IMG/VR virus record: IMGVR_UViG_3300045258_000102
Location: 8,891-72,890 of that record
Strand: one strand, 5' to 3'
DNA: 64,000 nt
From: a virus
Position 1 is the first letter of the stretch. The number at the start of each line of letters is the position of its first letter. This document shows positions 15,940 to 64,000 of this stretch, piece by piece. Below the pieces are notes generated by a model. The model saw only the letters and a list, made by a program, of their open reading frames with translations, was not told the origin of the DNA and did not search any database. A program made the translations under genes and the position numbers.

Positions 15940-17766
15940 TCAAGTTGGCCAGATGCCGATGGGGCGTTCGCCGCCCTGCTTCATTAGCTTTTGCGCCTTC
16001 TGTCGTCGCCACTCAAACGAACCCTCGGGCGGCTTCCGATCTTCCTTCTCGCTCCGCTTGCGGATCTCACTGAACGCGCGCACGGCGAGCGCGTCGGCAA
16101 TCACCATGTCGCCGTGGTTCTCGCCTTTGGCCGACGGGTCGGGAGTGCTTTTGCTGCGAGCGTGGATAATGCTGCCGTCCGTGTCGGTCACGTACTGCAG
16201 GCATTCACGCAGCGCAGCCTCGGAGCGGTTGAAGATCGATTGCTGCTTGAGCGCGACGAGGTACGAGTCGATGAGCGTCCGCTTCGTGTCTTTGTTGGTC
16301 CAGAAACCAGGCCGGTTGGTGCGTTCTTTGGCGTAGTCGGTCTCGTCCGACCGGCGGTAGAAGAAGCGGCGGTAGCCGCTGTCGACGATGACTTTGCCAA
16401 ACGCGGCGCCTGGCCCGTTGGCCTCCCAGATGATAAACGCGTCGCCGAGCCAATAGGCCATGGCGAGCACGTACTGCGCGAAGTCAGCCGGAAACACCGC
16501 ATTGGACGTGAACTGGGCGATTTTCTGGCCGGTGCTGACCTGCCAGGCGGCCGCGACCGAGTTGCTCGACTTTTCGGTGCCGCCGCCCTGCGCGATGTCG
16601 GCGCCAATCACGATGTCCGACCAGTGCGAACGCGGACCGCGGTCGGGATCCGGGTCAAACCAAATCTGAAAATGCCCATCTGGCCGCTCAATCCATTCCG
16701 GTTTCTTCCAGCCGTCGGGGAAGACGAGCTCGCCGGTGTCTTTCGGCTTCGGCTTGATGGCGTATTTCTTGATCTGCGTTTCGATGACGTCGACCGGGAA
16801 GTACTGCCAGCCGCTCTTGAGATAGCCGATGTTCCAATTCCGCGCCATGTACTGCGGGTTCGGCGCGTCAACTTCGGCCGCGTCGTAGGCTGGGCTGCGC
16901 GTCTCGCCGTCGAGGATGAACTTGTAGCTGCGCGGGAACTTGTATTCTTTGTCGATGACGTCGAGCACGTAGCCGCCGCCTTCGTCGTCGTGCACTGACC
17001 GGTACATTCCGGCGCCTTTGATCGGGTGATCGTGCCAGTGCAACCGAATCACGCGGTCCGGACTATTGGCCATCAGCTTTTCGCGGATGTCGTAGTACGC
17101 GCCGCTGGCGCCTTCCGGCGTGCCGCCGAGGATTAGACAGTCGGTTGCCTCGGCGCAGGCGTCGATGATCGCGTAGTCGTCTTCGATCGCCGGGAACTCG
17201 TCGATAAAGATAGCGGTTCGGCGACCACCGCGGCCGAAATCGGTGTTGGTCGACTCGCCGTCGATCTTCGAGTTGTTCGTGAGATTCTCGAAATGCAGAT
17301 TCTTGCGTCCTATCGGCGGCACCATCCATTTCGGTAGCCGCGCGAGCAGGTAGTCGATCTTCGAGAACAGCGAATCATCGTCGCCTTCGACCGCCTTTTC
17401 CTTGCGGCTGCCGCACAGGAAGGTCCGATTCGAACGGAACAAAAAGTACCAAACAAAGACCGCTAGGATCAGCCAGGTCATTCCCATCGTCCTGGACTTT
17501 TCCAGCAGCAGTCGGTGCTTTCCGATCGCGCTGATGATCTTGAGCGCGGCGCGCTCTTGTGCTGGCCACAAAACGAAGAGCCGATTGGGGTTGTCTGGAT
17601 AGCTCTTCGGATTGAAAGTCCAGCAGTACGTGTTGATAAAATACACCGGATCGCGCGAGCACCTGATCCATTGCTCCTCTTGGAAGTCGACGTCGTGCTC
17701 CGCCCGCTCGAGGATCGCACGGCGATAGCGAGAATTCTTTTGCAGATTTGAGGGCGCGGCAATCAT
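15940..17766 (-). CDS. terL: Terminase large subunit
   Basis: Walker A-like EKSRTMGMTW, Walker B IFIDEF, nuclease motifs IGADIAQG and HGDMVIADAL. Confidence 0.95.
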   Translation of the reverse strand: MIAAPSNLQKNSRYRRAILERAEHDVDFQEEQWIRCSRDPVYFINTYCWTFNPKSYPDNPNRLFVLWPAQERAALKIISAIGKHRLLLEKSRTMGMTWLILAVFVWYFLFRSNRTFLCGSRKEKAVEGDDDSLFSKIDYLLARLPKWMVPPIGRKNLHFENLTNNSKIDGESTNTDFGRGGRRTAIFIDEFPAIEDDYAIIDACAEATDCLILGGTPEGASGAYYDIREKLMANSPDRVIRLHWHDHPIKGAGMYRSVHDDEGGGYVLDVIDKEYKFPRSYKFILDGETRSPAYDAAEVDAPNPQYMARNWNIGYLKSGWQYFPVDVIETQIKKYAIKPKPKDTGELVFPDGWKKPEWIERPDGHFQIWFDPDPDRGPRSHWSDIVIGADIAQGGGTEKSSNSVAAAWQVSTGQKIAQFTSNAVFPADFAQYVLAMAYWLGDAFIIWEANGPGAAFGKVIVDSGYRRFFYRRSDETDYAKERTNRPGFWTNKDTKRTLIDSYLVALKQQSIFNRSEAALRECLQYVTDTDGSIIHARSKSTPDPSAKGENHGDMVIADALAVRAFSEIRKRSEKEDRKPPEGSFEWRRQKAQKLMKQGGERPIGIWPT

Positions 17767-43956: not shown

Positions 43957-44198
43957 GTCGGCCTCCACTTTTCTAGCATTGCCTTTGCTTCTGTTTGATG
44001 ATGCTTGTAGACGTACTCCTTGGCGCAGAAGTATTCCATTGCACGTTCCACCACTTCCCAGGGGACCATGCGCGCGTGGTTGGCGGCGATCATCCGCAGA
44101 GTCTCCCGGTCGAGTTCGCTCGCCATTCCCGCATCGGCACGGCGATTCATAAACGCAACCTCCAATGCTCTCTGCTCAACTGTCAGTGGGTCGCTCAT
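43953..44198 (-). CDS. Hypothetical protein
   Basis: 81 aa; ATGA-coupled on both sides. Confidence 0.55.
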   Translation of the reverse strand: MSDPLTVEQRALEVAFMNRRADAGMASELDRETLRMIAANHARMVPWEVVERAMEYFCAKEYVYKHHQTEAKAMLEKWRPT

Positions 44199-44836
44199 GC
44201 TTGCTCCGTAAGTGCAAGGGGTGAATTGGCCTCGAAGAATGCTGCGGCGAATCCGGCAGGCGTTTTCTCGCGCTCGCGTTTGTGGCTGCTGGACATGAAC
44301 GCGATGCGGCCCTGGGTGCGTCCGTTGGGGGTGCGCCGAGTCGGCTCTGGTTCCACGGGTTCAACCACGGGCGGCTTCTGCGCCGTTCCCCAGATGTAAG
44401 TTTGCTTTCCCCACGGATCGCCGTATTCCCACGGTTGATACTGCCAGGCAGGTGGGCCAAGTTCTGGGACTAACTCGCGGTGCCGGCCCGGCGGATTCTC
44501 CATCGCCCAAAAGCCGGTCGCCATCTTGCACAACCGCAGACAGGCCCGCATGATCGACACGTCCCGTTGCGTCTGGCCCAACAAATCCATCTTAAACCAC
44601 CAGCGAGCGCCGGGGCGGCAAAAGCAGGTGCATGGCGGAGCGGCCAGCACTGCCCACGGTCGATGTCCCATCACGAAGTCGCGCACGTCTCCGCCCACCC
44701 GCACCACGTTGCCTACCTGATGCGCTCCAGGCTTGTGGTCCAGGTCCACCATCACGACGCGACAACCGGCCTCAGCGTAGCGGCGCGACCATTCGCCCGA
44801 ATAATCGCACAAACTTAATACGAGTGGGTCGCTCAT
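44195..44836 (-). CDS. Phage DNA (cytosine-5) methyltransferase-like protein
   Basis: VLSLCDYSG.WS (motif I variant), LAAPPCT (catalytic PC) and WAMENP (ENP). Confidence 0.75.
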   Translation of the reverse strand: MSDPLVLSLCDYSGEWSRRYAEAGCRVVMVDLDHKPGAHQVGNVVRVGGDVRDFVMGHRPWAVLAAPPCTCFCRPGARWWFKMDLLGQTQRDVSIMRACLRLCKMATGFWAMENPPGRHRELVPELGPPAWQYQPWEYGDPWGKQTYIWGTAQKPPVVEPVEPEPTRRTPNGRTQGRIAFMSSSHKREREKTPAGFAAAFFEANSPLALTEQA

Positions 44837-45029
44837 GGCCTTACTCCTCGATTCAGAATGGTGGCAGAGTATTCGTGTGGTCTGATTGCATCTCGCTCGT
44901 AATACCTCCAGCGGTCTCGCCTTGGCTGTCGGTGTTCCTGATATTCCTCCAGGGATTCGTAGCAGTAAGGCGGCGGCGTTGCGAGTCGTCGATCCTCGCG
45001 GCATTTTGTGCAATTGCACATAGTCGTCC

Positions 45030-45548
45030 TCAAACTTCAAAGCCACGGTCTTTCAATATCTTGGCTACTTGAGCCTGAACCTGCGGACTTATCGGAACTA
45101 CTTCCATGCTTGAATCGCTTGCGGTCGTTTCCTTCGATCCACAGGGCAGGTTGTTGAAGGTGTAATCGGCCGCAAGTTGATCGCCGTTCAGTCGCAAGAG
45201 TTTTGGATTGTCTATGCCGCAAATGGTTTCGACTTCAATTCGATCATCTCGCAACATTACAAACACGACTTTTGCATGAAACGAGCAATAACGACGCAAC
45301 AACAAGTCACCCGGCCTCAGCGGGCAATCCTTGCCGGTCCACGGCTTGTAGGTGGGCGCGGGCTTCATGGCGTCCGCATTTCCAGTATCACGAATCGCCA
45401 TGATGAATCTAATGGCCACTTCCGCTACTTCCGGGTCACGCAATTGGTGCCCCAGTTTGCGCTCGTAAGTGAGCACGCGCTTTCTATTGACGAACAACAT
45501 CTCGTTGTCTTCGCTATCCATAATCACTTCGATCTGGGGCGTGGGCAT
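45030..45548 (-). CDS. Hypothetical protein
   Basis: GGAG SD; start MPTPQIEV. Confidence 0.55.
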   Translation of the reverse strand: MPTPQIEVIMDSEDNEMLFVNRKRVLTYERKLGHQLRDPEVAEVAIRFIMAIRDTGNADAMKPAPTYKPWTGKDCPLRPGDLLLRRYCSFHAKVVFVMLRDDRIEVETICGIDNPKLLRLNGDQLAADYTFNNLPCGSKETTASDSSMEVVPISPQVQAQVAKILKDRGFEV

Positions 45549-45576: not shown

Positions 45577-47280
45577 TTACTCAAAAAACACGTCGGCAGC
45601 TTTTGTTCCACCGTCGCGCTCATAGCCTTCTGCGGCTTCGAGTCCGCGCAGTCTTCCGATGGCATTATTCCAGGTGGAACTTCCCGAAGAATACCCGGAT
45701 GACTCTGACAACTCCGCCGTAGTCATTCGCGACGGATGTGCTTCGCAAAGTGCATCTAGCATGATGTTCTCAGCCTTTCCGAGTCGCGCCCTAAGCCACT
45801 CCCTGAGTGTCTTTCCACTCGGCTTAGGTTCGACACCCCACGACTCTACCTCCGCAATTCCGAGTGGCGTAATAGTCCATCCGCTTAAATGTCGCCGGCG
45901 CAAGCGACCCAGCGCGTTATTCCATGTCGAGCTATTGGAAGCATATCCAGAATAGAAAGACACCTTCGATGGCGTGGCCGTCTCGTCTTTAAGCCAATAA
46001 AACGCTCGCAAAATTGCACGCTCTGATTTTAATAGAATGATATCATCGTCGCCTACAACAGAGGCTATGGGCGCAGCAGGCTTAACGGTTTCGCGTCGTG
46101 ACGATGTACGACCACTCGGCGTTGCAATAGCAATCTTCTCAGTCGGAGCGCTCACCGTCACAATTGCTTCGCCGTTCAAATGGGCCAACTCGGCAATCTT
46201 TTTCAGCCGCGTCACGACTCCACTGTGAGCCTTTTGCAGTTTCGACACTTCTCCCTGCCAGTGCTTATCGCAATCGGCAGCAGCTTTCTCCGCTGCCTTG
46301 ATGAGCACGTTTGGATCGACAGCGGCCGGCTCCTTGGACTCCGCTTTCTTTTTCCATTCGGCGATCTGTTTGCGAAGTTCCTTCGGGTCGTTCGCCTTCG
46401 CTTCCTCGACCACCGATGCCAACTTAGCGCGAATCTCTGACAGATCGACCGACGCCCAGCCCTTGAGCTTTTCCGTCCCACTGTTGGCTTGCGGCGCAAA
46501 CGAATCGTAAGTCTTGAAAAGTGGGAAGGTGATTTGCTTTGGGCCGAATCCTATTTCCGGCGACCACACCCAACCCTCGCCACGTTGCATGGATGCCAGT
46601 GTATTCAAAACGTCGCGGCCCTTTTGTGCATCACCAGCGCCGTCAATCCAATCTTTGATCGCGTCCCGGTCCAGCTTGTGAATCACTCGCATGGCAACCA
46701 GCGTTTCGGCGCACGTCAGAAAATCCTTGTGGACCTTTTGCGGTCGCTGAGATGCCGAGAGGATCGTCAACCCCTTCCCGCGCCCTTCGCTCGCAAGCCG
46801 GTTCGCCCAATGCAGCATCTTGCCGGCGTCTGGATCGAGCACCTTCCCCTGTGGTGCAAAGTTGTGAACCTCGTCGATGACGATATAGCGATGCCCGCGC
46901 GTGGTGCGAAACAGCGTCGATGCGAAGTCCACAAAGAACCGAGTCCGCTCGCCCGGCATCCAGCCGCCAAGATTGATAATGCAGGGGCGGTTGCCGGTTG
47001 CGATCAGTTCGGCGACCTGCTGACCAGAGTGCGCGTTGAGTGGCACATCGGCATACTCGCCGCCAAAGATGACGACGGGGTAGCCAGCAGACTTACCACT
47101 TGCCGACAGCTTGAGCCCCCACCAATCACCCTTCGGGTCGATGATGCAAACCGGCTTCTGATCGTCCAACAGCCCTTCGACCATCGAGCGCAGTACCGAC
47201 GACTTCCCGGAGCCCGTTTTGCCAAGAACTGCAATATGCTGTCGGAAAATCTCGGCTGGTAGTTTTGCCATCGGGTTCAT
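45577..47280 (-). CDS. HerA/FtsK-family (DUF87) ATPase with C-terminal duplicated wHTH-like domains
   Basis: HIAVLGKTGSGKS, IIDPKGD, IVIDEVH, GRGKG, ASQRP; SGY...SSTWNNA.GRLR occurs twice. Confidence 0.85.
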   Translation of the reverse strand: MNPMAKLPAEIFRQHIAVLGKTGSGKSSVLRSMVEGLLDDQKPVCIIDPKGDWWGLKLSASGKSAGYPVVIFGGEYADVPLNAHSGQQVAELIATGNRPCIINLGGWMPGERTRFFVDFASTLFRTTRGHRYIVIDEVHNFAPQGKVLDPDAGKMLHWANRLASEGRGKGLTILSASQRPQKVHKDFLTCAETLVAMRVIHKLDRDAIKDWIDGAGDAQKGRDVLNTLASMQRGEGWVWSPEIGFGPKQITFPLFKTYDSFAPQANSGTEKLKGWASVDLSEIRAKLASVVEEAKANDPKELRKQIAEWKKKAESKEPAAVDPNVLIKAAEKAAADCDKHWQGEVSKLQKAHSGVVTRLKKIAELAHLNGEAIVTVSAPTEKIAIATPSGRTSSRRETVKPAAPIASVVGDDDIILLKSERAILRAFYWLKDETATPSKVSFYSGYASNSSTWNNALGRLRRRHLSGWTITPLGIAEVESWGVEPKPSGKTLREWLRARLGKAENIMLDALCEAHPSRMTTAELSESSGYSSGSSTWNNAIGRLRGLEAAEGYERDGGTKAADVFFE

Positions 47281-51620: not shown

Positions 51621-52477
51621 CGCTGCTTCCTTCGCGGGTGTCGTTCGCGTTCTTCCTTTGCCATCGCCGACCGCACCGGGTCGTTGTGGCTGGCCACGAT
51701 GCCGTCATCCACTCCGTCGAAGAAGGCGCCGCATTTTCGGCACTTGAAGATGTCGCCGACCGGTTGCGCATTTTTGCGACCGCACTGCGGGCATTGGGGT
51801 GGTTTGTTCTTACTCGTCACTTCGCATCCCTCCTTCCACGCAAGCGTCGAGCGCCGCCATAAAGTCAGCGTCGTAGTCAATGTTGCGCTTCCAGTAGTCC
51901 ATCTTTACGAGACGCTTTGCGCTAATTCGAATCCCGCGCAGATCGTTGATGTCGGCCAAGTAGCGCACGGACTGATGCGGGTGGCCCTGCGCCATGGCCC
52001 AGAGCCTAGCCTCGTAAACACTCGCCGCCAGCACGTACCAATACCCATCCGGTCCTGGCGACCATTCATCGCGTTCGCGATCTCTTCGAGTCTTCACCGC
52101 CTCCACAATCCGCTCCGCCGGCACCAGCGCCACAGTAAGCTGCTCCGGCGTCGGGTAGTCCTTGCAGAGCTCGCCGTCGAGCTCCATGTGCTGCAGGTCA
52201 GTCGCCAGCAGGATCGCGGCTAGGTCGTATTTATCGAGGTACATATAGTCTTTCACGCGTTGATGAACGATGCTTCGTCGTATGCCATCGAGGCGCCGAT
52301 CACCTTCCGCTGGTCGTTCTCGGCTTGCATCCCGTAGATGCGCGCTAGCTTGTCGACGGATCGCTCAAACTGGTTGATCGCCTCGGTGAAGTTCATGCCA
52401 GGAAACTGCTCCATCGCGCTCTTGAGCGAATAGGCAGCACGTTCAAATCTCTCCGAGAGAAGGTTGACGTTGTTCAC
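51617..52477 (-). CDS. Three small genes (51617-51820 zinc ribbon, 51810-52256, 52253-52477)
   Basis: Overlapping starts and stops; CPQCG/CRKCG. Confidence 0.55.
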
Positions 52478-54249
52478 TTCGCATCCTCCCGGCCGAAGAC
52501 CGCGATCCAGTTCCGTCCCCGGTGCGCCACACCGACGCGATCGAAATTCATCTCGACCCATCTGTTATTCAGGTTGATCTTGCCCAAAAGCTGCTGCCGA
52601 TGTCCGAAGCTCAGCACCCAGCCGTGGACCATTTCACCGACCGACCACGCGCCGGATCCGTCGTCCTGGGCCAGGTCGTCCGTTGCCGTGCCCTTAAAGC
52701 CGAAGCGATGGGCGGAGGCTTCCACGCCACAGCCTTCGGCGAAGTGGTCGTACCACTGAACCCGGTGGCGAGCGCACTGCATCAAGCACGGATCGACGAC
52801 CAGTGCCGGCTTAGCGTAGGCGGCCCGCTCGGCGTTGATGCGCGTGACCATCGTTTGCTCGGTGCTTGAGAGCGGCGTCTCGGCCCGCGCCACGGTCGGC
52901 AGTAAGCAGAGCAGCGCGAGCACCACGCGACACCGTCGCTTGAGCATTCGGCCAATCATCGAGTTAAGACCGATGTAGGCGAGAAGAGCGATCAGGGCGA
53001 GTATCCACGTGCGCGGCTCCGGAACTGCCTTGATCGAGAGCCCGGTCGACTTCGTCAGCGTGAACGCCTTGCCGCCGATCGAGTAGTCGCCAAGGTAGCC
53101 GGTGAACGATACGAACCCATTCGCGTCGGCCTTCGCCGTCAGGTTGGTCATCACCGACTTGATGAACGCCTGCCACGCGGCACCAGCGGGGGTCTGCGTG
53201 TACCTGCCGTTGCTGAGGTTGTACAGCGCCATCGTCGGCGCCCAATCCTGCGAACTACCGGTGTTGACCCATGTCCAGTCGTAGACGCCTGTGGTCAGCG
53301 GATTGCCGTACATCATGCGTAGCGTCTGGTTCATCAGGACGTCGGTGTTCTTGAGCCCGGAGAAGCCACCGAGTTCTGTGAGCACGCTTGGCAATCCGAG
53401 AGCGTTGAGCTTGGCGAGGTTGGATGCGATGCTCGACGGCGTCGGCAGGGCTTCGCCCGACCAGCCCAAGTAATCTTCCATGCCGAGCTCACCGACGTAG
53501 CCGCCCGCGGCCTGGATCTCCTTAACGTCGTTCAGGTATGCCGTGGTGAACCTGCCATTGAACAGATGGTCGTTGTTCACGCCGGCCTGCAGGCTCGGCA
53601 TCTTGACGTGGATCTGGTTGTAGATGCTGGCGACGTTGCTATATCCGATCGCCTTGACCCAGTCGGTCACGCTGCTGGACTCGTTGAACACGTCCATCTG
53701 CGTGTAGTGCTGGTGCGTATCGTTCAGCACATAGTTCACGCGGCCCTGCAGCCACGTTACCAGTTGTTTCTTGGCGTTGGAGTCGCCGCCCATCGCCTTC
53801 TTCTGCAAGGAGTTGAGCCAGGACGGCTGGCCTTCCTCCGTGTTGTAGGCCAGCGTGTGGAACCGCGTGCTCAGTTTGTTTTTCGTAGCGAAGTCGTTGA
53901 ACAGGTCGATCGCTCCGAAGTCAATCCTGCCCTTCGTCGATTCCATGTCCATCGGGTAACCGCCGCCGCGAGGCGTGATTGAATTGGCGTTTGCCAGGAT
54001 CAGGGCCGATGCTGTCTTGTTCTGCAGTTGGTCGCTTCCGGCGCCGACCCCGAAGTTGAATGCGTTGCGCGTCATGTTGACAGCAACAGATTGGCCAGGC
54101 TGAAAGCCACCAATTGTCGCTGTCGCAGTTCGATACTTGGCAATGTTGGCATCCGCCGTGGCCAGCGCGGCGCTGTCCGACGACGAGAGCGCCGCTGATG
54201 CTGGTGACGCCAGCAGCAACAGGGTGAGGGTGGTGAGGATTCGGTTCAT
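52474..54249 (-). CDS. Signal peptide-GH10 glycoside hydrolase-PEP-CTERM-second signal peptide-CAP domain fusion
   Basis: SP ending ASA; RFHTL, MDVFNE (acid/base), VLTEL (nucleophile); VPEPRTW+TM+RMLKRR; hydrophobic..ARA; INAERA...W..S.GHR..LL...VGVA. Confidence 0.85.
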   Translation of the reverse strand: MNRILTTLTLLLLASPASAALSSSDSAALATADANIAKYRTATATIGGFQPGQSVAVNMTRNAFNFGVGAGSDQLQNKTASALILANANSITPRGGGYPMDMESTKGRIDFGAIDLFNDFATKNKLSTRFHTLAYNTEEGQPSWLNSLQKKAMGGDSNAKKQLVTWLQGRVNYVLNDTHQHYTQMDVFNESSSVTDWVKAIGYSNVASIYNQIHVKMPSLQAGVNNDHLFNGRFTTAYLNDVKEIQAAGGYVGELGMEDYLGWSGEALPTPSSIASNLAKLNALGLPSVLTELGGFSGLKNTDVLMNQTLRMMYGNPLTTGVYDWTWVNTGSSQDWAPTMALYNLSNGRYTQTPAGAAWQAFIKSVMTNLTAKADANGFVSFTGYLGDYSIGGKAFTLTKSTGLSIKAVPEPRTWILALIALLAYIGLNSMIGRMLKRRCRVVLALLCLLPTVARAETPLSSTEQTMVTRINAERAAYAKPALVVDPCLMQCARHRVQWYDHFAEGCGVEASAHRFGFKGTATDDLAQDDGSGAWSVGEMVHGWVLSFGHRQQLLGKINLNNRWVEMNFDRVGVAHRGRNWIAVFGREDAK

Positions 54250-54264
54250 GGCGATTTCCTTTCG

Positions 54265-54999
54265 TTACAGGGTTCTTGTATCGATCCACCACGCGACCAG
54301 AAACGCGAGCGGGTTCTTTGTCGTGGGATGATAGATTCGTCCGATGACGAGCGGGTCGGCCTTGCGCTGCGCTGGAAGGACGCCAATCTCGTCGAATACT
54401 TTGGCCGCCAGCGCTCGGCAAGTCGCGTCCATGACAATCGGCTGCGCGAGTGAGATTGGGAATTCGATCTCTTGGAATTCCTTGGGGAAATAACGAGTGA
54501 GCACCTTCTGGTCGCCAGCAGCCGGATACTCGCGCTGATAGATGATTGGATTCGGGCTGCGGTTTTCACCCTTCCCGATCGGCGGATTGTTTGAGGACTG
54601 GGGAAACGACGACCAGCTTGACTCGCTGCTGTCGGCTTTCGGGCGTTTTCTGGTCGTCCTGATGGCGATTACGCTGACCGGGAAGTTCGGCACAATCGCG
54701 TAGCCAGCCTCCACGGCCGCTAGGCATTTCTCGTAGTACTGGACCCGCGCCAATGCGTTGTTTGCCTGTCGCTCGAACGGTCCGAGCTTCCAGCCGGCCT
54801 TTGCCGCCGTCTCGAGGCACTCGCACATTTCTTTTTCGTCGGCACGTACGATCTCGAGCTTGGCGCGAAACCACTCGGCGAGTTTCGTTTGCGCCTCGCG
54901 CATTTCGGCCGGATTCATCGCCACGAGTTGCATCTCGTCGCTGACGTCGCTTACTGTCGTCGAAGGTACTGAGCCTGCTGTCGCTAGTGACGTGGACAT
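54265..54999 (-). CDS. Conserved hypothetical phage protein
   Basis: 244 aa; AGGAG SD; DPLVIGRI...FLVAWW. Confidence 0.7.
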   Translation of the reverse strand: MSTSLATAGSVPSTTVSDVSDEMQLVAMNPAEMREAQTKLAEWFRAKLEIVRADEKEMCECLETAAKAGWKLGPFERQANNALARVQYYEKCLAAVEAGYAIVPNFPVSVIAIRTTRKRPKADSSESSWSSFPQSSNNPPIGKGENRSPNPIIYQREYPAAGDQKVLTRYFPKEFQEIEFPISLAQPIVMDATCRALAAKVFDEIGVLPAQRKADPLVIGRIYHPTTKNPLAFLVAWWIDTRTL

Positions 55000-55002
55000 T
55001 GA

Positions 55003-55230
55003 TTAGCTCCTGTTGGTGGCCACTGACAGTGGCACGTACTTCGGGCAACCGTAGACCGCCTTCGGCACGAAGTCGCCCATCGCCTCGTACTTGGCCAGCC
55101 GCTTGCGAATTAGGTGGTCGGTAACGCCCAACTCTCTCGCGGCCGCCATCCGGTTACCACACTGCCGGCGAATCGACGCCAGGATGGCTCGACGCTCGAT
55201 CTCCGCGAGGGTGAGGATTTCGTCATCCAT
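55003..55230 (-). CDS. Fis-family HTH protein
   Basis: TLAEIERRAI...GNRMAAARELGV....RKRL.KY. Confidence 0.8.
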   Translation of the reverse strand: MDDEILTLAEIERRAILASIRRQCGNRMAAARELGVTDHLIRKRLAKYEAMGDFVPKAVYGCPKYVPLSVATNRS

Positions 55231-55679
55231 TGCCAGCCTCCTGCGCTTTGCTGGCGTCAGCCTCGGCCTTCTTAATGGCTTCCTGCCACCTCTGCTCAAC
55301 GAGCGGTTCGATAGTGGTTACGGCGGCATTAAACTCGGCCATCGTGCAGAGACCCTTGGACCGCATCAATTCAATCACTGCGGCCAATCCGACGGTCAGC
55401 GCCTTAATCTGCGTCTGCACGCCGTCGTCGTACTCGCGCTCGGCTTCGATGTCCTTGGCCAGTAGTTCGCTAAGCTCCATTGCCGGTCCCTTTCACGCGC
55501 ACCAGAAACATGACTCCGCAGCGTCGGCACTTTTCTTCGTGCGTTGTGTTGCGCTCCGAGAACTGTTGCAGGCGGCAACACGCACACGTCCAGGCTATGG
55601 CGATGTAGGCTTTCACCTCGCCGATCTTGTCCGGAGCGGCCTCGCAGTCGTCGGGTTTGCTGATGCGGTTCTTAGCCAT
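55223..55679 (-). CDS. Two small hypothetical genes (55223-55480; 55470-55679 zinc finger)
   Basis: Overlapping ORFs; CACC/CRRC. Confidence 0.5.
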
Positions 55680-55905
55680 GCGACTTTCTTGAGGCTCGTT
55701 GTTCTTCTTGGACCTTGCCAGACAGGACGGCCGCGTCGTACCAGCTAAACGACAACTCTGGATTCGAGGCGAAGCGGCCGAACCGACGCAGCACTTCCGC
55801 CCGTGTCTTGCCGTCGTACGTGAAGACATATTTCTCTTTGCCATTGGTGAACGCGAGGATGTGGATGTCTTCGTCGGTGGGTTTGGGGAGGCCGATGTTT
55901 CTCAC
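55672..55905 (-). CDS. Planctomycete-type conserved small protein
   Basis: DIHILAF..G.EKY.F.YD...R.E.LR..GRFASNPELSFSWYDAAVLS, recalled as a Planctomycete chromosomal family; GTGA overlap. Confidence 0.7.
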   Translation of the reverse strand: MRNIGLPKPTDEDIHILAFTNGKEKYVFTYDGKTRAEVLRRFGRFASNPELSFSWYDAAVLSGKVQEEQRASRKSHG

Positions 55906-56165
55906 GTCGCGACTCCCATCGGTTTCTGCCGCACGACGCGCGATAGTCCCGCGACGCTCCCTGATCCGCCTACGCAAATCCAGGTCTCGCTGATCCCATC
56001 TCGCCAGCTCGACGTCGGCACGGCCCATGCCGTGTACCAGACGCCGCCATCGTCTTCGTACTCCACCGACACTCTCGAGCGCACGTCGCCACAGCACTCT
56101 TTGATGACGCGCAGCAGTTCTTGGATGTCTTTGGCGTCCGGTCGGACTGCGATCGCTGTGCTCAT
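55902..56165 (-). CDS. Hypothetical protein
   Basis: ATGA-coupled. Confidence 0.5.
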   Translation of the reverse strand: MSTAIAVRPDAKDIQELLRVIKECCGDVRSRVSVEYEDDGGVWYTAWAVPTSSWRDGISETWICVGGSGSVAGLSRVVRQKPMGVAT

Positions 56166-57667
56166 GTCGTTGCCCCAGCTGGTTCGAACGGCTTAGCTTG
56201 CATCTCTTTTCCGTCGGCCGGATCGCGCGTGGCCTCAGCCGTTAGCAAAAACACCTTACGCAGCTTCGCGTGCTCGTGGATGATCGCCCGATTGAACGAA
56301 TCACACGACTCCCAGGCCCCCTGTTCGACAACCAGCAAGCCGCCTTCGCCAACTCTCTCGACACCGAGGTCGATTGCCAGCGTCCAACGCTCACCTTCGG
56401 AAAGTTGGTGGTAATCGGTCTCCCCGCGCACCGGATGATCTGTCACCAAACGCGGCACGCCCTCGCGTAGCTCGACTTTGAGCCGATCGCACTTGATGGC
56501 GTCTGAGAGTACTTCATCCACGCAGCCAGCCGCCTCGCGGAGTCGCTTGGCCTTGGTTCGAGCAGCGGCAGCCGCTTCCTTGTGCTTCGTGGCCTCAGTC
56601 AGCTTCTCTTTGGCCATGCGGATCTTGACGCCCACGGCCATCGCTTCGGCCGCAGCGACAAGCGCGGCATCCGTCTCCGCGAGGTCGCCGGTAACTTCAC
56701 CTGCTTCCGTGAACCGCGCGATCGTGGCGTTGTGGGCCTTGAGGCTTTCGCGGTGCTCAGTGGCACGCTGTAGCTCACGCTGGGCCGACATGCACGCAAC
56801 CACGTCGCTCTCGTGGCGACGGCGGGCGACCTCCAACTGCTCGGCAAGGATATCGATGACTTCCTGTGCCCTCTTCGCCTCAGAATTGGCAGCGTCGAGC
56901 GCCTTCTGCGCTGCGTCCACCGATTCCCCCTTGTAGTCGTCCTGCAGCTTGCGCACGGCAGCCTTGGCAGAAGTAGCGTCGCTCCGCAACCGGTCGTAGC
57001 CGGTGATCTGAGCGCCGAGCTTCGCGTGGGCATCGCGGGCCGCGTCGTAGTTCGATTGCAGCCTATCGGCGTTTGACTCCGCTTCGAGGTCGACGCCGGC
57101 TGCGGCTTCTTCCATGCCGCGGGCGTGCGCCTCTTCGCGGTCTGCTTCACGTTCGGCTTCGAGCGCCGCCCGGTCGTAGTCGCGCTTGATCTTGCCGGCC
57201 ATCTCGACGATGTCGGTTGTGGCTGTAGACTCTTCGCTGACGACTGCCGGCAGGTCGGTGAGCGACGGGTGGCTTGCGAACAGCTCGCGGCTAGCTGGTA
57301 CGCCCATGAGCGAAACTAGGGCCTTGATTCTTTGTTTGTCGCTCGTTTCGGCGGTCTTCATTCCTGGATCGACGAGCTCGGCCAATGAGAACTTTCCTTC
57401 GAGCGTGTCCACCTGGAATTCGCCGTTGTGCCGCGTGGAAGCGCCGATCGAGATAACGGCTCCGCACATATTGAGTGAGCCGCGGCGTTGGCCATCGCGG
57501 AGGGGCAGCTTGCCATTGCCCATTGCGGCTTTCTGCACGGCGTCGAGCAAGATCGACTTTCCGCGCCCGTTGGCCGCGACGAGACAGGTCACGCCGTAGT
57601 CCTTGAGTTGGAAACTCAGCTTCTCTACGGGCCCAAGATTCGATACTTCGATTTCATGCGTCGGCAT
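56162..57667 (-). CDS. SMC/SbcC-like ABC ATPase with coiled coil
   Basis: I.V.NLGP, AANGRGKS (Walker A), long coiled coil, LSEGER signature. Confidence 0.8.
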   Translation of the reverse strand: MPTHEIEVSNLGPVEKLSFQLKDYGVTCLVAANGRGKSILLDAVQKAAMGNGKLPLRDGQRRGSLNMCGAVISIGASTRHNGEFQVDTLEGKFSLAELVDPGMKTAETSDKQRIKALVSLMGVPASRELFASHPSLTDLPAVVSEESTATTDIVEMAGKIKRDYDRAALEAEREADREEAHARGMEEAAAGVDLEAESNADRLQSNYDAARDAHAKLGAQITGYDRLRSDATSAKAAVRKLQDDYKGESVDAAQKALDAANSEAKRAQEVIDILAEQLEVARRRHESDVVACMSAQRELQRATEHRESLKAHNATIARFTEAGEVTGDLAETDAALVAAAEAMAVGVKIRMAKEKLTEATKHKEAAAAARTKAKRLREAAGCVDEVLSDAIKCDRLKVELREGVPRLVTDHPVRGETDYHQLSEGERWTLAIDLGVERVGEGGLLVVEQGAWESCDSFNRAIIHEHAKLRKVFLLTAEATRDPADGKEMQAKPFEPAGATT

Positions 57668-58130
57668 CGCTCTCTCCTTGCGTGGTGGTGTTCACATCGT
57701 CGCCGGCTTCGAGCGCGGCGAATCGCTCCTCGATCGCACCGATGCGCCTGAAGATTCCGCGAACAATGTCGTTGGGCTCTGAAGTCTCAAACCCCTCAAT
57801 CGCTCGCAGTACAAACTTCGTAGTCGCCGGCACGGCAGGGACCGTTGCGGCCTCCGCTGTCGCCGGCACTTCGGGGACTTCCGGCACGTCGACCTCGACC
57901 GATTCCAAGCCCGGCCGGCAGCAGAAGTGCGCTGGCGTCACGTCATCGCCCTCTTGCAGCAGGCGGAGTCGCGTCTCTGGTTGCTGGCGACCGCTGCGGT
58001 GCGTCACGAGCAGATTCACGAGTCCGTCCGGGTCGACTTGGATGATCGTTGCGGCCAGCGGACCGGGGTCGGTCATGCGACTGTTGAAGTACCAGGCGCG
58101 TCGGCCGATGGTTGGAATGAAGCTACTCAT
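57654..58130 (-). CDS. Conserved phage protein (PTxGR..Y...PxAA.I..V...VNL family)
   Basis: Motif IPTIGRRAWY...PLAATIIQV...VNLLV. Confidence 0.65.
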   Translation of the reverse strand: MSSFIPTIGRRAWYFNSRMTDPGPLAATIIQVDPDGLVNLLVTHRSGRQQPETRLRLLQEGDDVTPAHFCCRPGLESVEVDVPEVPEVPATAEAATVPAVPATTKFVLRAIEGFETSEPNDIVRGIFRRIGAIEERFAALEAGDDVNTTTQGESDADA

Positions 58131-59166
58131 ATTGGTCACTGCCTTTCTCAAAGAGTTCTTTCTTGCCCTTCGTCGGGTCCGCGCTTTTCAGCTTGTGCAG
58201 CTTCCAATCGCGTAGCTCGCAACCCGTCGTGTGGTCCTCTTCGCTCAGCTGCCCGTTGCTGTTGATGTGCGACTCGAACGCGGCCAGCACGTCGGCCTCG
58301 GTCTTTGCGTCGAAGATGGCGACGCCGTAGTCGGCGAGGTGCTTCGGGATGATCGGTGGCTTCGGACCCTTTGCCGCCGACTCTTCAGCTGTGGCCTCGA
58401 GCGGGACGGTAGCCGCGTCAATTCGCGTGTCCTCGTCGGTGAGCGGCGGGACGTCGACGGCCGGGTCGCCGGTGAATTGCGGAGCGGCCTTCTCGGCTTC
58501 GATTTGCCGGCGCAAGTGTTCGGCGCGACTGGCGGAAGGCGGACCGCTGAGAGATCCGACCTTCGCGTCGACGTCGCCAACGAACGCGTCTAGCTCGTCG
58601 TCCGCATAAACTCCGAGCAGTACGTCCGGGAAATACATTCGCGCGAAGTCGCGTGATGCCGAGTAGTAAAGCTGCAGGTCGGGGTTCGATTGCCAAAGCG
58701 GTGAGTTCTTCACTTTGATCATGCCGATTTCCGGCGACTCGTAGACAAGCGGCTCGTCCTCGCCTTTTGCCGTGGCCCATATTTTGCATTTCCGTTTCGC
58801 GCCTTCTCCGCTGTAGCTGTGCCGAAGCCTGCTCGTGATTGGGGCACGCTGTTCCAAAACGGCGTGCACCAGCTGAGATTCCCAGCCCAATCGGTCATTA
58901 ACTACGTAAGATTTGTTCGCTACGGCGTAGGGCGACAGCCGCCACTCAACTGCCTGGATGACAATGCCCAAGCAAACCCCAGGTCGATTCCGGCAATGTT
59001 TCGGGACCGCTTCGCCGCTGACCGCCATGAGCTTTGCGACGTTCATCACTTCTTCCATCGACTTGAACGCGAGGCCACCGGCCTCGCCGCTGACTGCGAG
59101 CGCTCCGGCCGCTCTCGTGTCGATCGCTGCGGGGACAAGTTCCTGCTTTGGTGCTTGCGTGCTCAT
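58123..59166 (-). CDS. recT: RecT-family single-strand annealing protein
   Basis: VPKH.R..PG.C..I..QA..W.L.PYAVANK.YVVN; SPLW..NP..QL.Y...R..AR...PDV.LGVY..DEL. Confidence 0.85.
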   Translation of the reverse strand: MSTQAPKQELVPAAIDTRAAGALAVSGEAGGLAFKSMEEVMNVAKLMAVSGEAVPKHCRNRPGVCLGIVIQAVEWRLSPYAVANKSYVVNDRLGWESQLVHAVLEQRAPITSRLRHSYSGEGAKRKCKIWATAKGEDEPLVYESPEIGMIKVKNSPLWQSNPDLQLYYSASRDFARMYFPDVLLGVYADDELDAFVGDVDAKVGSLSGPPSASRAEHLRRQIEAEKAAPQFTGDPAVDVPPLTDEDTRIDAATVPLEATAEESAAKGPKPPIIPKHLADYGVAIFDAKTEADVLAAFESHINSNGQLSEEDHTTGCELRDWKLHKLKSADPTKGKKELFEKGSDQYE

Positions 59167-62450: not shown

Positions 62451-63333
62451 ATGTTTCTCAGCGAACTTGTCTCGCAATACGTACTTGAGCGGAACGAGGA
62501 GCGTGATATTGGTAGGGAATTGTCGCCGCGCACCGCTGGCCATCTGCTCGATTGTGCCGCAGTTTATTCACGCTACTTAAAACGCAGGGCGGTCGCCTCG
62601 GATCTGACGGCCGCTGGGATTAGCGAACTGCTGATTGTTGAGAGCAGCGCCGGCCGCTCGCCCTACACGATTAAGAACCGACGAACCGGCTTGCGCGTGT
62701 TGAGGAACTTCGCACTGAGAAAAGGCTGGGTCGATGATGCTGGCAAAACGATTCGCAAGGTGTTTTGCCCGCCGCTGGACGTGGATGGATACGACCTGGC
62801 GAAGATGAGCATGTTCGCAGATTACCTCGCGGGACTGACGGGCACCGTGCGCCACACGGGCATCCCGCGCGCTGTCTATTGGGAATCTCTGCTGCTGACG
62901 GCCTGGGAGCTTGGCCTGAGAATCGGCGATATGCCGCGGATTGAGTCGCAGCACTTCCAACGTGATGGCTGGTTGTTCGTGAGTGAGAGCAAAACCGGCA
63001 AAGGCGGATGGATGCGGATTCGCCCAAGCGTGACCGAGGCGATTGTCCGCTGCATCGACGCCAAGCCGAATCGGCAATACATCTGGCCTGCGCTTCAAGG
63101 TTAGAAACCTCTATCGGGCATTCAAACTCCTGGCAGAGAGAGCGGCCGTGTTTGGCACAAGCCGCTACGTTCGGCGGGGCTCTGGATCGGCCTATGAGAA
63201 GTTGCACCCCGGCTGCGGCTGGCGATTCCTGAGGCATTCCGGGCCGCAGGTTTTCGAGAAGCACTACCGGATCAGGCGGATTTGCGACGCTGACTCCCCT
63301 GCCCCGCCGGAAATACCCAGGTCGTGCGAATAA
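62451..63333 (+). pseudogene. Tyrosine integrase split by a +1 frameshift near 63090-63104
   Basis: Frame 1 has GLRIGD (R) and SKTG (K); the +1 frame has YVRRGSGS (R), LRHS (H) and KHY (Y). Confidence 0.8.
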
Positions 63334-63443: not shown

Positions 63444-64000
63444 ATGTCTGCAAAGTACTCTATGCGCTTTTCTCTTTTCGCGGCAGTGCTGTTTTTGACG
63501 TCGAACGCTCACGCCGATCGCCTGCTGTCAACGGTCGATGCCAACTGGTTACACTACTCGGCGGACCCTGCCGACTTCGATCTTTATTTCGGCATCAATG
63601 GTGGTGAAGAATCGCACCCCGATATGGTGACGCTTGAGATTGAGGGCGTGTCCGCTGCCGACTACGGCCACGCGTTCACATTCTCGGCCGCCGATCCAGG
63701 ATTTGCAGACGTGGCCAAAATGATTCATCAGTCCGAATTCGGCGCTAGCTTCTACGTCGATCAATACGGCTTCTATTGCGCCACGAACTCGCTTTGGCAG
63801 AGTAGCTCAGACCTCTTCAGCACGACGACGTCCCCGCTGAGTGGCCACCTTGGCGGCATCCAGCTAACTTCAATCGCCGTGACTCCGCTTGATCTGCACC
63901 ACGCACAGTTCGATTTTTACGGAGTCCCAGAGCCATCAACCTGGCTGCTGCTGACCATTGGCGTCGGATTCTGCGTCCTGCGCAAAGTGCCTCTCTTATC
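63444..64000 (+). CDS. PEP-CTERM surface protein (runs off window; absent from ORF track)
   Basis: AAGGAGG SD; signal peptide ending AHA; open to the edge, ending GVPEPSTWLLLTIGVGFCVLRK. Confidence 0.85.
   Translation, partial: MSAKYSMRFSLFAAVLFLTSNAHADRLLSTVDANWLHYSADPADFDLYFGINGGEESHPDMVTLEIEGVSAADYGHAFTFSAADPGFADVAKMIHQSEFGASFYVDQYGFYCATNSLWQSSSDLFSTTTSPLSGHLGGIQLTSIAVTPLDLHHAQFDFYGVPEPSTWLLLTIGVGFCVLRKVPLL

What the first reader, a model, noticed from the sequence alone, without database searches (positions are those of the whole stretch)
52474..54249. Possible phage polyprotein: GH10-PEP-CTERM followed in frame by a second signal peptide and a CAP domain
Seen: one ORF reads signal peptide, GH10 (both catalytic Glu motifs, DVFNE and LTEL), VPEPRTW + TM, RMLKRR, hydrophobic helix ending ARA, then a CAP/SCP domain. 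Established: PEP-CTERM is normally the extreme C-terminus and is processed by exosortase. Inference: the basic tail of the PEP-CTERM doubles as the n-region of a second signal peptide. The topology (out-in-out) would let host exosortase and signal peptidase I release two exported proteins from one chain. It sits inside the early/replication operon, suggesting the phage remodels the host surface or adds a glycan-degrading enzyme.
Basis: partly seen in the sequence, partly recalled or inferred. Interest (0 to 1): 0.85.

Follow-up and report, generated by a model that had tools for sequence, protein, structure and literature searches.

The report
Phage gene fusing xylanase-like and CAP proteins
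In one soil phage, a secreted xylanase-like enzyme gene and a small secreted CAP-domain protein gene have merged into a single reading frame with no stop between them, a one-off fusion that may or may not be cut back into two exported proteins.

Summary
ORF 52474..54249 (-) encodes 591 aa: signal peptide, GH10 domain with both catalytic Glu, a PEP-CTERM-like anchor (V409-R434), then in frame a second signal peptide (M435-A456) and a CAP/SCP domain.

It joins two complete preprotein genes. The closest GH10 relative (P0002, 66% identity, 435 aa) stops at the residue aligned with R434. The closest CAP relatives are stand-alone proteins of about 155-160 aa whose first Met and signal peptide align with M435 onward.

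The junction is not an assembly slip. A contig from a second soil metagenome of another study covers 52856-53006 without a difference.

The fusion is unique in every search made. None of 92 CAP relatives among 1.84 billion representatives shares it, the phage collection gives no match, and 0 of 38 viral loci sharing the upstream gene carry GH10 or CAP.

The anchor is below the PEP-CTERM model cut-offs and is not C-terminal. The host and its exosortase are unknown.

The out-in-out topology and an Ala-x-Ala cleavage site make release of the CAP protein plausible, but nothing shows processing or selection. This is a real, derived, singleton fusion of moderate interest.

The parts
52474..54249 (-). 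Fused ORF of 591 aa plus stop (P0001)
   Evidence: Identical in contigs of runs X1 (whole stretch) and X2 (four pieces).
54193..54249 (-). N-terminal signal peptide, M1-A19, ending ASA before A20
   Evidence: Read from the sequence. Hydrophobic segment at about 5-16. No SignalP was available. An AAGGAA Shine-Dalgarno-like motif lies 10-12 nt upstream of the ATG.
53266..54072 (-). GH10 catalytic domain, residues 60-328. Putative acid/base E190 (53680-53682) and nucleophile E292 (53374-53376).
   Evidence: Pfam PF00331, E 8.3e-15. 64 solved chain sequences at E <= 0.01, nearly all named xylanases or GH10, best 1i1w at E 1.6e-10 with the FNE and TEL stretches aligned. The Atlas's own model matches GH10 clusters at TM 0.77-0.81.
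53026..53265 (-). C-terminal extension of the GH10 module, residues 329-408, shared with P0002
   Evidence: Conserved with P0002. The phmmer match to the xylanase 7d88 runs to residue 391. My AlphaFold model is of low confidence here.
52948..53025 (-). PEP-CTERM-like anchor, V409-R434: VPEP, a hydrophobic helix, then R434, which is the ancestral C-terminus of the GH10 protein
   Evidence: Sub-threshold matches to PF07589 and TIGR02595. The last residue of P0002 aligns with R434. Model helix at 414-431.
52882..52947 (-). Internal signal peptide, which is the original N-terminus of the CAP preprotein, M435-A456. The n-region is MLKRRCR, the h-region is VVLALLCLLPTV, and ARA precedes E457.
   Evidence: Aligns with the N-terminal signal peptides of stand-alone homologues P0007, P0008, P0012, P0017 and P0021. 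Hydrophobic segment at 442-452. No Shine-Dalgarno-like motif in the 25 nt before M431 or M435.
52477..52881 (-). Mature CAP/SCP domain protein, E457-K591
   Evidence: Pfam PF00188, 24.7 bits. pLDDT is 96-98 in most 10-residue blocks over about 461-580 (one block at 89, last full block 92). Foldseek matches 4ifa (E 1.9e-5) and BB0689 4d53 (TM 0.74 by target, rmsd 2.5). All 26 invariant columns of alignment A1 are kept.
52253..52477 (-). Downstream 74-aa gene. Its GTG start overlaps the TGA stop of the fusion (GTGA), with GGAGG upstream.
   Evidence: No family match.
54265..54999 (-). Upstream 244-aa conserved phage gene of unknown function, ending 15 nt before the start of the fusion
   Evidence: 26 database proteins at E <= 0.001, of which one (P0098) is the window's own product. 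38 IMG/VR loci carry a relative. None of the 38 has GH10 or CAP nearby.

Best explanation
The ORF is a real, evolutionarily recent, in-frame fusion of two complete genes for exported proteins. It is carried as accessory cargo in the early recombination and replication operon of a circular soil phage of about 72.8 kb. Gene 1 encoded a secreted GH10-type glycanase anchored by a PEP-CTERM-like tail that ended at R434. Gene 2 encoded a CAP/SCP preprotein of about 157 aa with its own Sec signal peptide starting at M435. The stop codon, and any spacer between the genes, has been lost, so R434 is followed directly by the old initiator Met (shown). What happens to the product is inferred. The N-terminal signal peptide sends the GH10 domain through Sec. 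The anchor helix (about 414-433) stops transfer. The RMLKRRCR loop stays in the cytoplasm. The old CAP signal peptide re-enters the translocon N-in/C-out and carries the CAP domain across. Signal peptidase I most likely cuts after A454-R455-A456, as it presumably does in the stand-alone homologues, and so frees the CAP protein in the periplasm. The GH10 then stays held by a two-helix hairpin. Whether a host exosortase still recognises the now internal VPEP anchor is open. Likelihoods: the fusion is real and derived, about 0.9. The CAP protein is released by signal peptidase, about 0.5. The GH10 is also released by exosortase, about 0.3.
For: The frame is uninterrupted. The junction is identical in a contig of a second soil metagenome from another study (X2, 52856-53006, 0 differences) and in X1. 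P0002 (435 aa, 66% identity over 395 columns) ends at the residue aligned with R434. By my own reading of the sequences, four of the five GH10 relatives (P0002, P0003, P0005, P0006) end in a PEP motif plus a hydrophobic stretch with no domain after it; P0004 does not. In the exhaustive HMMER search with residues 435-591, 91 proteins other than the query's own were found. The best are stand-alone proteins of 155-162 aa (P0007, P0008, P0012, P0013, P0017, P0021) whose matches begin at their residues 4-14. In alignment A1, which starts at M431, their initiator Met is placed at M431 and their signal peptides align with M435-A456. Only three hydrophobic segments exist, and the loop between the last two carries five positive charges. 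The CAP domain folds with high confidence into a CAP fold and keeps every invariant family residue. GH10 keeps both catalytic Glu. GC3 is the same in both halves, 0.816 and 0.815. There is no Shine-Dalgarno-like motif before M431 or M435, whereas 9 of the 12 genes I listed between 49545 and 61339 have one at -4 to -14. Those starts are crude and no shuffle control was run. This fits loss of the spacer, with CAP translation now depending on the fusion.
Against: Nothing shows that the protein is made or cut, and no RNA or protein data were available. No second sequence keeps the fusion, so there is no sign of selection for it. The anchor is below both PEP-CTERM model cut-offs. Haft et al. 2006 note that PEP-CTERM regions followed by long tails may be non-functional (passages). 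The second hydrophobic stretch has only 12 residues, so its behaviour as an internal re-insertion signal is assumed. The missing Shine-Dalgarno motif is weak evidence, because 3 of 12 operon genes and 21 of 39 genes overall also lack one. X2 carries the same genotype, so it confirms the sequence but is not an independent evolutionary instance.
Confidence: 0.55

Rival explanations
1. Nested genes. The CAP protein is made mainly on its own, by internal initiation at M435 (or M431) inside the long ORF, as in-frame nested phage genes are. The read-through fusion is a tolerated by-product.
For: In alignment A1 the initiator Met of the stand-alone homologues falls at M431, and their signal peptides align with M435-A456. 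21 of the 39 phage genes I listed lack a recognisable Shine-Dalgarno motif, so this phage can apparently start without one.
Against: There is no Shine-Dalgarno-like motif in the 25 nt before M431 or M435, while most neighbouring operon genes have one. No promoter-like site was found on either strand of 51800-55400. Ribosomes translating GH10 would occupy the site.
Confidence: 0.2
2. Damaged cargo. The loss of the stop is a neutral or mildly harmful accident. The internal PEP-type anchor is no longer sorted, the CAP domain stays tethered or is degraded, and the gene is on its way to decay.
For: It is a singleton in all the searches made. The anchor is below the model cut-offs. Haft et al. 2006 remark that long-tailed PEP-CTERM examples may be non-functional. 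The cargo is absent from 38 of 38 loci that share the upstream gene.
Against: Both domains are intact: the catalytic Glu residues and all invariant CAP columns are kept. The same allele is present in two soils. The downstream gene is translationally coupled to the end of the ORF through a GTGA overlap with GGAGG, so the frame is used through to its end.
Confidence: 0.2
3. Artefact. A stop codon or frameshift between two genes was lost in sequencing or assembly.
For: It is a singleton architecture from a metagenome assembly. X1 may be the very source of the record.
Against: An independent run of another study (X2) holds a contig across 52856-53006 with 0 differences and 0 gaps. No differing letters, indels or joints were listed in either run. 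Both halves are in the same frame with no spacer, which a simple base-call error would not create.
Confidence: 0.03

Closest known systems
PEP-CTERM / exosortase (EpsH, XrtA) sorting substrates (Haft et al. 2006, PMC1569441, passages read)
   Same: It has an N-terminal signal peptide, a Pro-Glu-Pro motif, a hydrophobic helix of about 15-20 residues and a basic cluster. The GH10 relatives P0002, P0003, P0005 and P0006 end in the same kind of tail by my reading. The same phage encodes a second small protein whose tail passes the model cut-offs.
   Different: 157 residues follow the ancestral C-terminus, whereas the paper reports a median of three extra residues and fewer than ten in 87% of cases. 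HMM scores are below the cut-offs. The gene is carried by a phage. No exosortase is in the phage and the host is unknown.
Stand-alone secreted bacterial CAP/SCP/PR-1-like proteins of about 155-160 aa (P0007, P0008, P0012, P0017, P0021). Solved relatives are Borrelia BB0689 (4d53), the Bacillus anthracis SCP-domain protein (4ifa) and GAPR-1.
   Same: 39-44% identity to the nine aligned relatives in A1, with the same length, the same signal peptide position and 26 invariant columns. The CAP fold is predicted with high confidence.
   Different: Here the preprotein has no start of its own and is read on from the end of another exported protein. Of the 10 long CAP hits scanned (326-1015 aa), none has GH10 or PEP-CTERM upstream.
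GH10 endo-beta-1,4-xylanases, in particular the branch with CBM60-like, dockerin and PEP-type tails (P0003-P0006, and an Atlas cluster that is mostly Planctomycetota)
   Same: The Pfam GH10 match passes its cut-off. Both catalytic Glu motifs align with solved xylanases. The Atlas model matches GH10 clusters at TM 0.77-0.81.
   Different: Only 25-30% identity to P0003-P0006. It lacks their N-terminal module. Its substrate is untested. It is phage-borne and fused to CAP.
Polyproteins cut at internal signal peptides by host signal peptidase: the flavivirus structural polyprotein and the Bradyrhizobium japonicum FbcH cytochrome b/c1 precursor (both recalled from memory, from no call)
   Same: One chain, a membrane-spanning segment followed by an internal signal peptide, and predicted cleavage on the far side of the membrane giving two proteins.
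   Different: Those are conserved, experimentally shown designs. This is a singleton with no evidence of cleavage. My literature searches found no phage case (0 papers) and nothing usable on FbcH (1 paper, unrelated).

Membership tests
Glycoside hydrolase family 10 | Sequence match to the family profile above the curated cut-off | tested here: met
   PF00331 scores 55.2 bits against 22.1, covering residues 60-328. 64 solved chain sequences match at E <= 0.01, nearly all named xylanases or GH10.
Glycoside hydrolase family 10 | Two catalytic glutamates: acid/base in the ..NE.. motif and nucleophile in the ..TEL.. motif (motif names recalled) | tested here: met
   E190 in DVFNE and E292 in LTELG align with FNE and ITELD of 1i1w. 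Both are conserved in P0002.
Glycoside hydrolase family 10 | (beta/alpha)8 barrel fold | tested here: inconclusive
   My AlphaFold model has low confidence in this part because only five relatives were in the alignment. The Atlas's own model matches GH10 clusters at TM 0.77-0.81 over residues of about 12-419 (a lead).
Glycoside hydrolase family 10 | Xylanase activity | not testable with these tools
   Needs an enzyme assay.
CAP / SCP / PR-1 superfamily | Profile match above the cut-off | tested here: met
   PF00188 scores 24.7 bits against 21.1. A profile of A1 hits 4ifa (E 4.3e-4), BB0689 and GAPR-1.
CAP / SCP / PR-1 superfamily | Alpha-beta-alpha sandwich CAP fold | tested here: met
   pLDDT is 96-98 in most 10-residue blocks over about 461-580 (one block at 89). 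Foldseek gives 4ifa at E 1.9e-5, 4d53 at TM 0.74 by target and rmsd 2.5, plus SAV1118, GAPR-1 and P14a.
PEP-CTERM sorting domain | Pro-Glu-Pro motif, then a hydrophobic helix of about 14 residues, then a basic cluster | tested here: met
   P410-E411-P412, a hydrophobic segment at 413-430, then R434 and MLKRRCR. The features are as listed by Haft et al. 2006.
PEP-CTERM sorting domain | Score above the curated HMM cut-off | tested here: not met
   PF07589 scores 12.2 and 15.5 bits against 20.7. TIGR02595 scores 9.7 and 13.3 bits against 16. Only model positions 1-15 of 24 match. P0002's own tail also gives no hit.
PEP-CTERM sorting domain | Position at the extreme C-terminus | tested here: not met
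   157 residues follow R434. The paper gives a median of three extra residues.
PEP-CTERM sorting domain | An exosortase in the same cell | not testable with these tools
   There is none in the phage record (PF09721, 0 matches).
Sec / signal peptidase I signal peptide (internal, M435-A456) | Basic n-region, hydrophobic h-region of 10-15 residues, small residues at -3 and -1 | tested here: met
   MLKRRCR, then VVLALLCLLPTV, then A454-R455-A456 before E457. It aligns with the N-terminal signal peptides of stand-alone homologues. This rests on inspection only; no SignalP or DeepTMHMM was available.
Processed polyprotein | Cleavage into separate mature proteins | not testable with these tools
   No proteomic or expression data were available. 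No RNA run was listed.

The most novel reading that the evidence does not exclude
A phage has turned two host-type export genes into a true bacterial membrane polyprotein. One Sec-targeted chain threads out-in-out and is resolved by two different host membrane proteases. Exosortase cuts at an internal VPEP anchor and signal peptidase I cuts at an internal signal peptide. An early operon thereby delivers a surface glycanase and a periplasmic or secreted CAP protein in fixed 1:1 amounts. That would be the first natural PEP-CTERM shown to work away from a C-terminus, and a prokaryotic-virus counterpart of the signal-peptidase-resolved polyproteins of flaviviruses.
Probability: 0.2. Interest if true: 0.7.

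Novelty: new variant of a known kind. Interest (0 to 1): 0.45.

Why it matters
If the chain is processed as its topology suggests, it is a ready-made natural test of two open points. One is whether an exosortase needs its PEP-type signal to be C-terminal. The other is whether bacterial signal peptidase I resolves natural internal signal peptides in phage proteins. It also shows a soil phage carrying, inside its early operon, two host-type cell-envelope proteins (three with the second PEP-CTERM protein). That points to remodelling of the host surface or its polysaccharide during infection. If the chain is not processed, this is simply a recent gene-fusion accident caught in two soils. It is then useful mainly as a caution that long multi-domain ORFs in viral contigs can be stop-loss fusions.

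Tried and rejected
**Relatives with the same fusion**
- The search for related loci with P0001 and with P0002 in viral contigs gave no relative.
- The CAP alignment A1 in viral contigs gave 68 pattern matches, none of them a relative.
- Alignment A2 and P0002 in metagenome contigs gave none.
- The single upstream and primosomal proteins in viral contigs gave none.
- tblastn of P0001 against 50,697 phage records gave no match.
- The word-based search for short CAP relatives gave 32 candidates, none significant.

**Context of P0002**
- Its 5,730-base contig could not be fetched. The look-up of encoding contigs is declared closed and I did not call it.
- I looked for a homologue of the upstream gene on a contig of the same length. 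None of the 26 hits (one of them the window's own protein) had that length.
- Whether a CAP gene follows GH10 in that relative is therefore unknown.

**Host**
- The genome-contig scan with A3 gave only two weak hits in Myxococcota MAGs (34% identity over residues 1-74; L005, L006). I did not follow them.
- Terminase relatives in cultured phages are at most 31% identical.
- No tRNA was found in the window.
- The Atlas taxa (Planctomycetota, Verrucomicrobiota, Bacteroidota, Acidobacteriota) are leads only.

**Expression**
- No RNA holder was listed.
- The promoter and terminator scan of 51800-55400 found nothing on the minus strand.

**Structure**
- The full-length AlphaFold model is poor for GH10 (mean pLDDT 64.6), so I took no GH10 fold conclusion from it.

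**Integrase**
- The ORF at 62451-63104 gives only a weak PHROG integrase hit (E 7.6e-4).
- It gives no PF00589 match, so I make no claim about a temperate lifestyle.

**Literature**
- 'PEP-CTERM' plus 'phage' returned 30 papers, of which 15 were listed.
- One preprint passage mentions a PEP-CTERM domain protein in a virus-like element of Dehalococcoides.
- The Microcystis paper concerns host genes.
- 'GH10' as a word start in a soil-virus CAZyme preprint matched only GH108-type words, and there was none in 10.1101/583997. I therefore make no statement on how often viral GH10 has been reported.
- 'internal signal peptide' + 'polyprotein' + 'bacteriophage' returned 0 papers. 'fbcH' + 'polyprotein' returned one unrelated paper.
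- Supplementary files were not consulted.

**Idea considered and left as speculation**
- The fusion might have arisen by a small deletion in an overlapping or abutting stop-start, or by deletion of a short spacer. No sequence of an unfused ancestor was available to test this.
Full report
**What the window is.** The window is bases 8891-72890 of an IMG/VR virus record of 72,890 bases that is classed as having direct terminal repeats. The same PEP-CTERM match occurs at record positions 51-104 and 72814-72867. The repeat is therefore 127 bases long, which looks like the overlap of a circular assembly; that reading is my inference. The record encodes a large terminase (15940-17766, phrog_5989 and phrog_2). 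It is only distantly related to cultured phages, with at most 31% identity in the terminase. G+C content is 59.4%.

**The observation.**
- The minus-strand ORF 52474..54249 has 591 codons.
- Pfam finds GH10 at residues 60-328 (E 8.3e-15, above cut-off) and CAP at residues 469-555 (24.7 bits against 21.1). It finds a sub-threshold PEP-CTERM at 408-422.
- Against solved structures, the first 434 residues match 64 chain sequences at E <= 0.01, nearly all named xylanases or GH10. The best is 1i1w at E 1.6e-10. E190 (DVFNE) and E292 (LTELG) align with its FNE and ITELD stretches.
- The ESM Atlas's own model of this protein matches GH10 clusters at TM 0.77-0.81.
- My AlphaFold model was built on a 49-row alignment with only five GH10 relatives. 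It is poor for GH10 but very confident for the CAP part, where pLDDT is 96-98 in most 10-residue blocks over about 461-580.
- Foldseek places the CAP part with the Bacillus anthracis SCP-domain protein 4ifa, Borrelia BB0689 (TM 0.74 by target, rmsd 2.5), SAV1118 and GAPR-1.
- The junction reads VPEPRTWILALIALLAYIGLNSMIGRMLKRRCRVVLALLCLLPTVARAETPL (residues 409-460).
- A hydropathy scan finds only three hydrophobic segments in the whole protein: the N-terminal signal peptide, 413-430 and 442-452. The loop RMLKRRCR carries five positive and no negative charges.

**Is the missing stop real?** One run, X1, which may be the source, holds a 40,348-letter contig identical over 52200-54400. A run from a different sample and study, X2, holds four pieces without a single difference. 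One of these is a 151-letter contig covering 52856-53006, which spans the anchor helix, the basic loop and the second signal peptide. No differing letters, indels or joints were listed in either run. These are contigs, not raw reads, and X2's depth is only about 2. Even so, an assembly or base-calling artefact is very unlikely.

**What the ORF is made of.**
- The word-based search of 5.8 billion clusters found five relatives of the protein besides itself, all matching through the GH10 part.
- The closest, P0002, has 435 aa and is 66% identical over 395 aligned columns. It ends in its own PEP-type tail, and its last residue aligns with R434 of the phage protein.
- By my own reading, P0003, P0005 and P0006 also end in a PEP motif plus a hydrophobic stretch with no domain behind it. 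P0004 does not.
- I sent residues 435-591 through the exhaustive HMMER search of 1.84 billion representatives. It returned 92 proteins at E <= 0.001, one of them the query's own.
- The best of the rest are stand-alone proteins of 155-162 aa (P0007, P0008, P0012, P0013, P0017, P0021), 39-48% identical, whose matches begin at their residues 4-14. In alignment A1, which starts at M431, their initiator Met is placed at M431. Their signal peptides align with M435-A456.
- Ten long CAP hits of 326-1015 aa carry no GH10 or PEP-CTERM; the 816-aa hit P0056 was not scanned.
- The ORF is therefore gene 1 (GH10 preprotein, residues 1-434) joined without a single spacer residue to gene 2 (a complete CAP preprotein, 435-591, initiator Met included).
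- The nearest GH10 relative is at 66% identity. The nearest CAP relative is at 48%, and no closer short CAP protein was found. This suggests different histories for the two halves, but it is an inference.

**Context.**
- The gene order on the minus strand is: YqaJ-like exonuclease, HNH, RecT, an unknown ORF (57654-58151), an AAA ATPase, an unannotated stretch with small ORFs (55223-56165), a Fis-type HTH protein, a conserved 244-aa protein, the fusion, a 74-aa gene, a 148-aa gene, a zinc-ribbon protein, a primosomal/replication-initiation protein, DUF6475 and RusA.
- The fusion starts 15 nt after the upstream stop and has AAGGAA upstream of its start. The downstream gene's GTG overlaps the fusion's TGA, with GGAGG upstream. 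The ORF is thus tightly built into the operon.
- Homologues of the upstream 244-aa gene led to 38 IMG/VR loci. None of the 38 has GH10 or CAP within about 8 kb. The fused gene is therefore accessory cargo of this lineage.
- There is no Shine-Dalgarno-like motif in the 25 nt before M431 or M435. By contrast, 9 of the 12 genes I listed between 49545 and 61339, and 18 of 39 overall, have one at -4 to -14. Those starts are crude longest-ORF choices, the motif set is loose, and no shuffle control was run.

**PEP-CTERM membership.** The three features named by Haft et al. 2006 are present: PEP, a hydrophobic stretch of about 14 residues and a basic cluster (passages read). However, the HMM scores fail both curated cut-offs, and the region is 157 residues from the C-terminus. 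The paper states that 87% of examples have fewer than ten further residues and that long-tailed ones may be non-functional. I therefore call it PEP-CTERM-like. The phage has no exosortase, and the host could not be determined. A second small protein of the phage (window 63444 onward, running into the record's start) has a tail that passes the cut-offs: 25.1 bits for PF07589, 30.5 for TIGR02595 and 21.9 in hmmscan. This suggests that the host does use this sorting system.

**Most likely mechanism.**
- Shown: one frame, two complete preproteins, intact catalytic and family-invariant residues, and a helix / basic loop / signal peptide arrangement.
- Inferred: Sec export of the GH10 domain, then stop-transfer at helix 414-433, then a cytoplasmic RMLKRRCR loop.
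- Inferred: the old CAP signal peptide re-inserts N-in/C-out, the CAP domain is translocated, and signal peptidase I cuts after A454-R455-A456.
- That would free the CAP protein and leave GH10 on a hairpin anchor. Exosortase action on the internal VPEP is the least certain step.

**Rivals.** The alternatives are internal initiation at M435 (nested genes), a non-functional stop-loss accident, and an artefact. The last is nearly excluded.

**Comparison and novelty.** Each part is ordinary: GH10, bacterial CAP/SCP, a PEP-type anchor and a Sec signal peptide. The unusual element is the join, in which a sorting anchor that is defined by being C-terminal is followed in frame by a second signal peptide and domain, on a phage. 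The nearest functional analogies are polyproteins resolved at internal signal peptides (flavivirus, and B. japonicum FbcH). I recall these from memory, and my searches found no phage case. Because it is a singleton with no evidence of processing or selection, I rate it a new variant of known kinds with moderate interest (0.45). The bolder polyprotein reading gets about 0.2 probability.

Noticed in passing
window 63444-64000 (+), continuing into the start of the record (L002:1021-1575; L003:3-137): [quoted passage not shown] It has no other family match. It spans the junction of the terminal repeat.
   Followed up: partly
record positions 51-113 and 72814-72876 (window about 63924-63986): The 'direct terminal repeat' of the record is 127 bases long, an offset of 72,763. 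It looks like the overlap of a circular assembly and not a packaging repeat (my inference). CheckV completeness is nevertheless given as 61.
   Followed up: no
window 62451-63104 (+) and the overlapping ORF at about 63043-63333 (L002:28-681 and 620-910): This ORF has a weak PHROG integrase hit (phrog_1, E 7.6e-4). The next ORF, in another frame, looks by eye like the C-terminal catalytic part of a tyrosine recombinase, so this may be a frameshifted integrase. No PF00589 match was found in any frame.
   Followed up: partly
window 45577-47280 (-): A second terminase-large-subunit-like or FtsK-like ATPase (phrog_2666, E 1.7e-20) lies far from the terminase at 15940-17766, next to a DNA methyltransferase (44195-45046, phrog_757).
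   Followed up: no
window 54265-54999 (-): This 244-aa protein of unknown function has no Pfam or PHROG match. It is nevertheless conserved at 29-46% identity in 38 IMG/VR viral loci and in 25 other database proteins, with invariant C, W and D residues. It is an uncharacterised, widespread phage early-gene family.
   Followed up: partly
Atlas feature search with residues 435-591: One of the nearest clusters is an unnamed family of 176-aa proteins with 81 members, 94% of them from viruses (Uroviricota). This hints that small CAP-like secreted proteins may be recurrent phage cargo.
   Followed up: no
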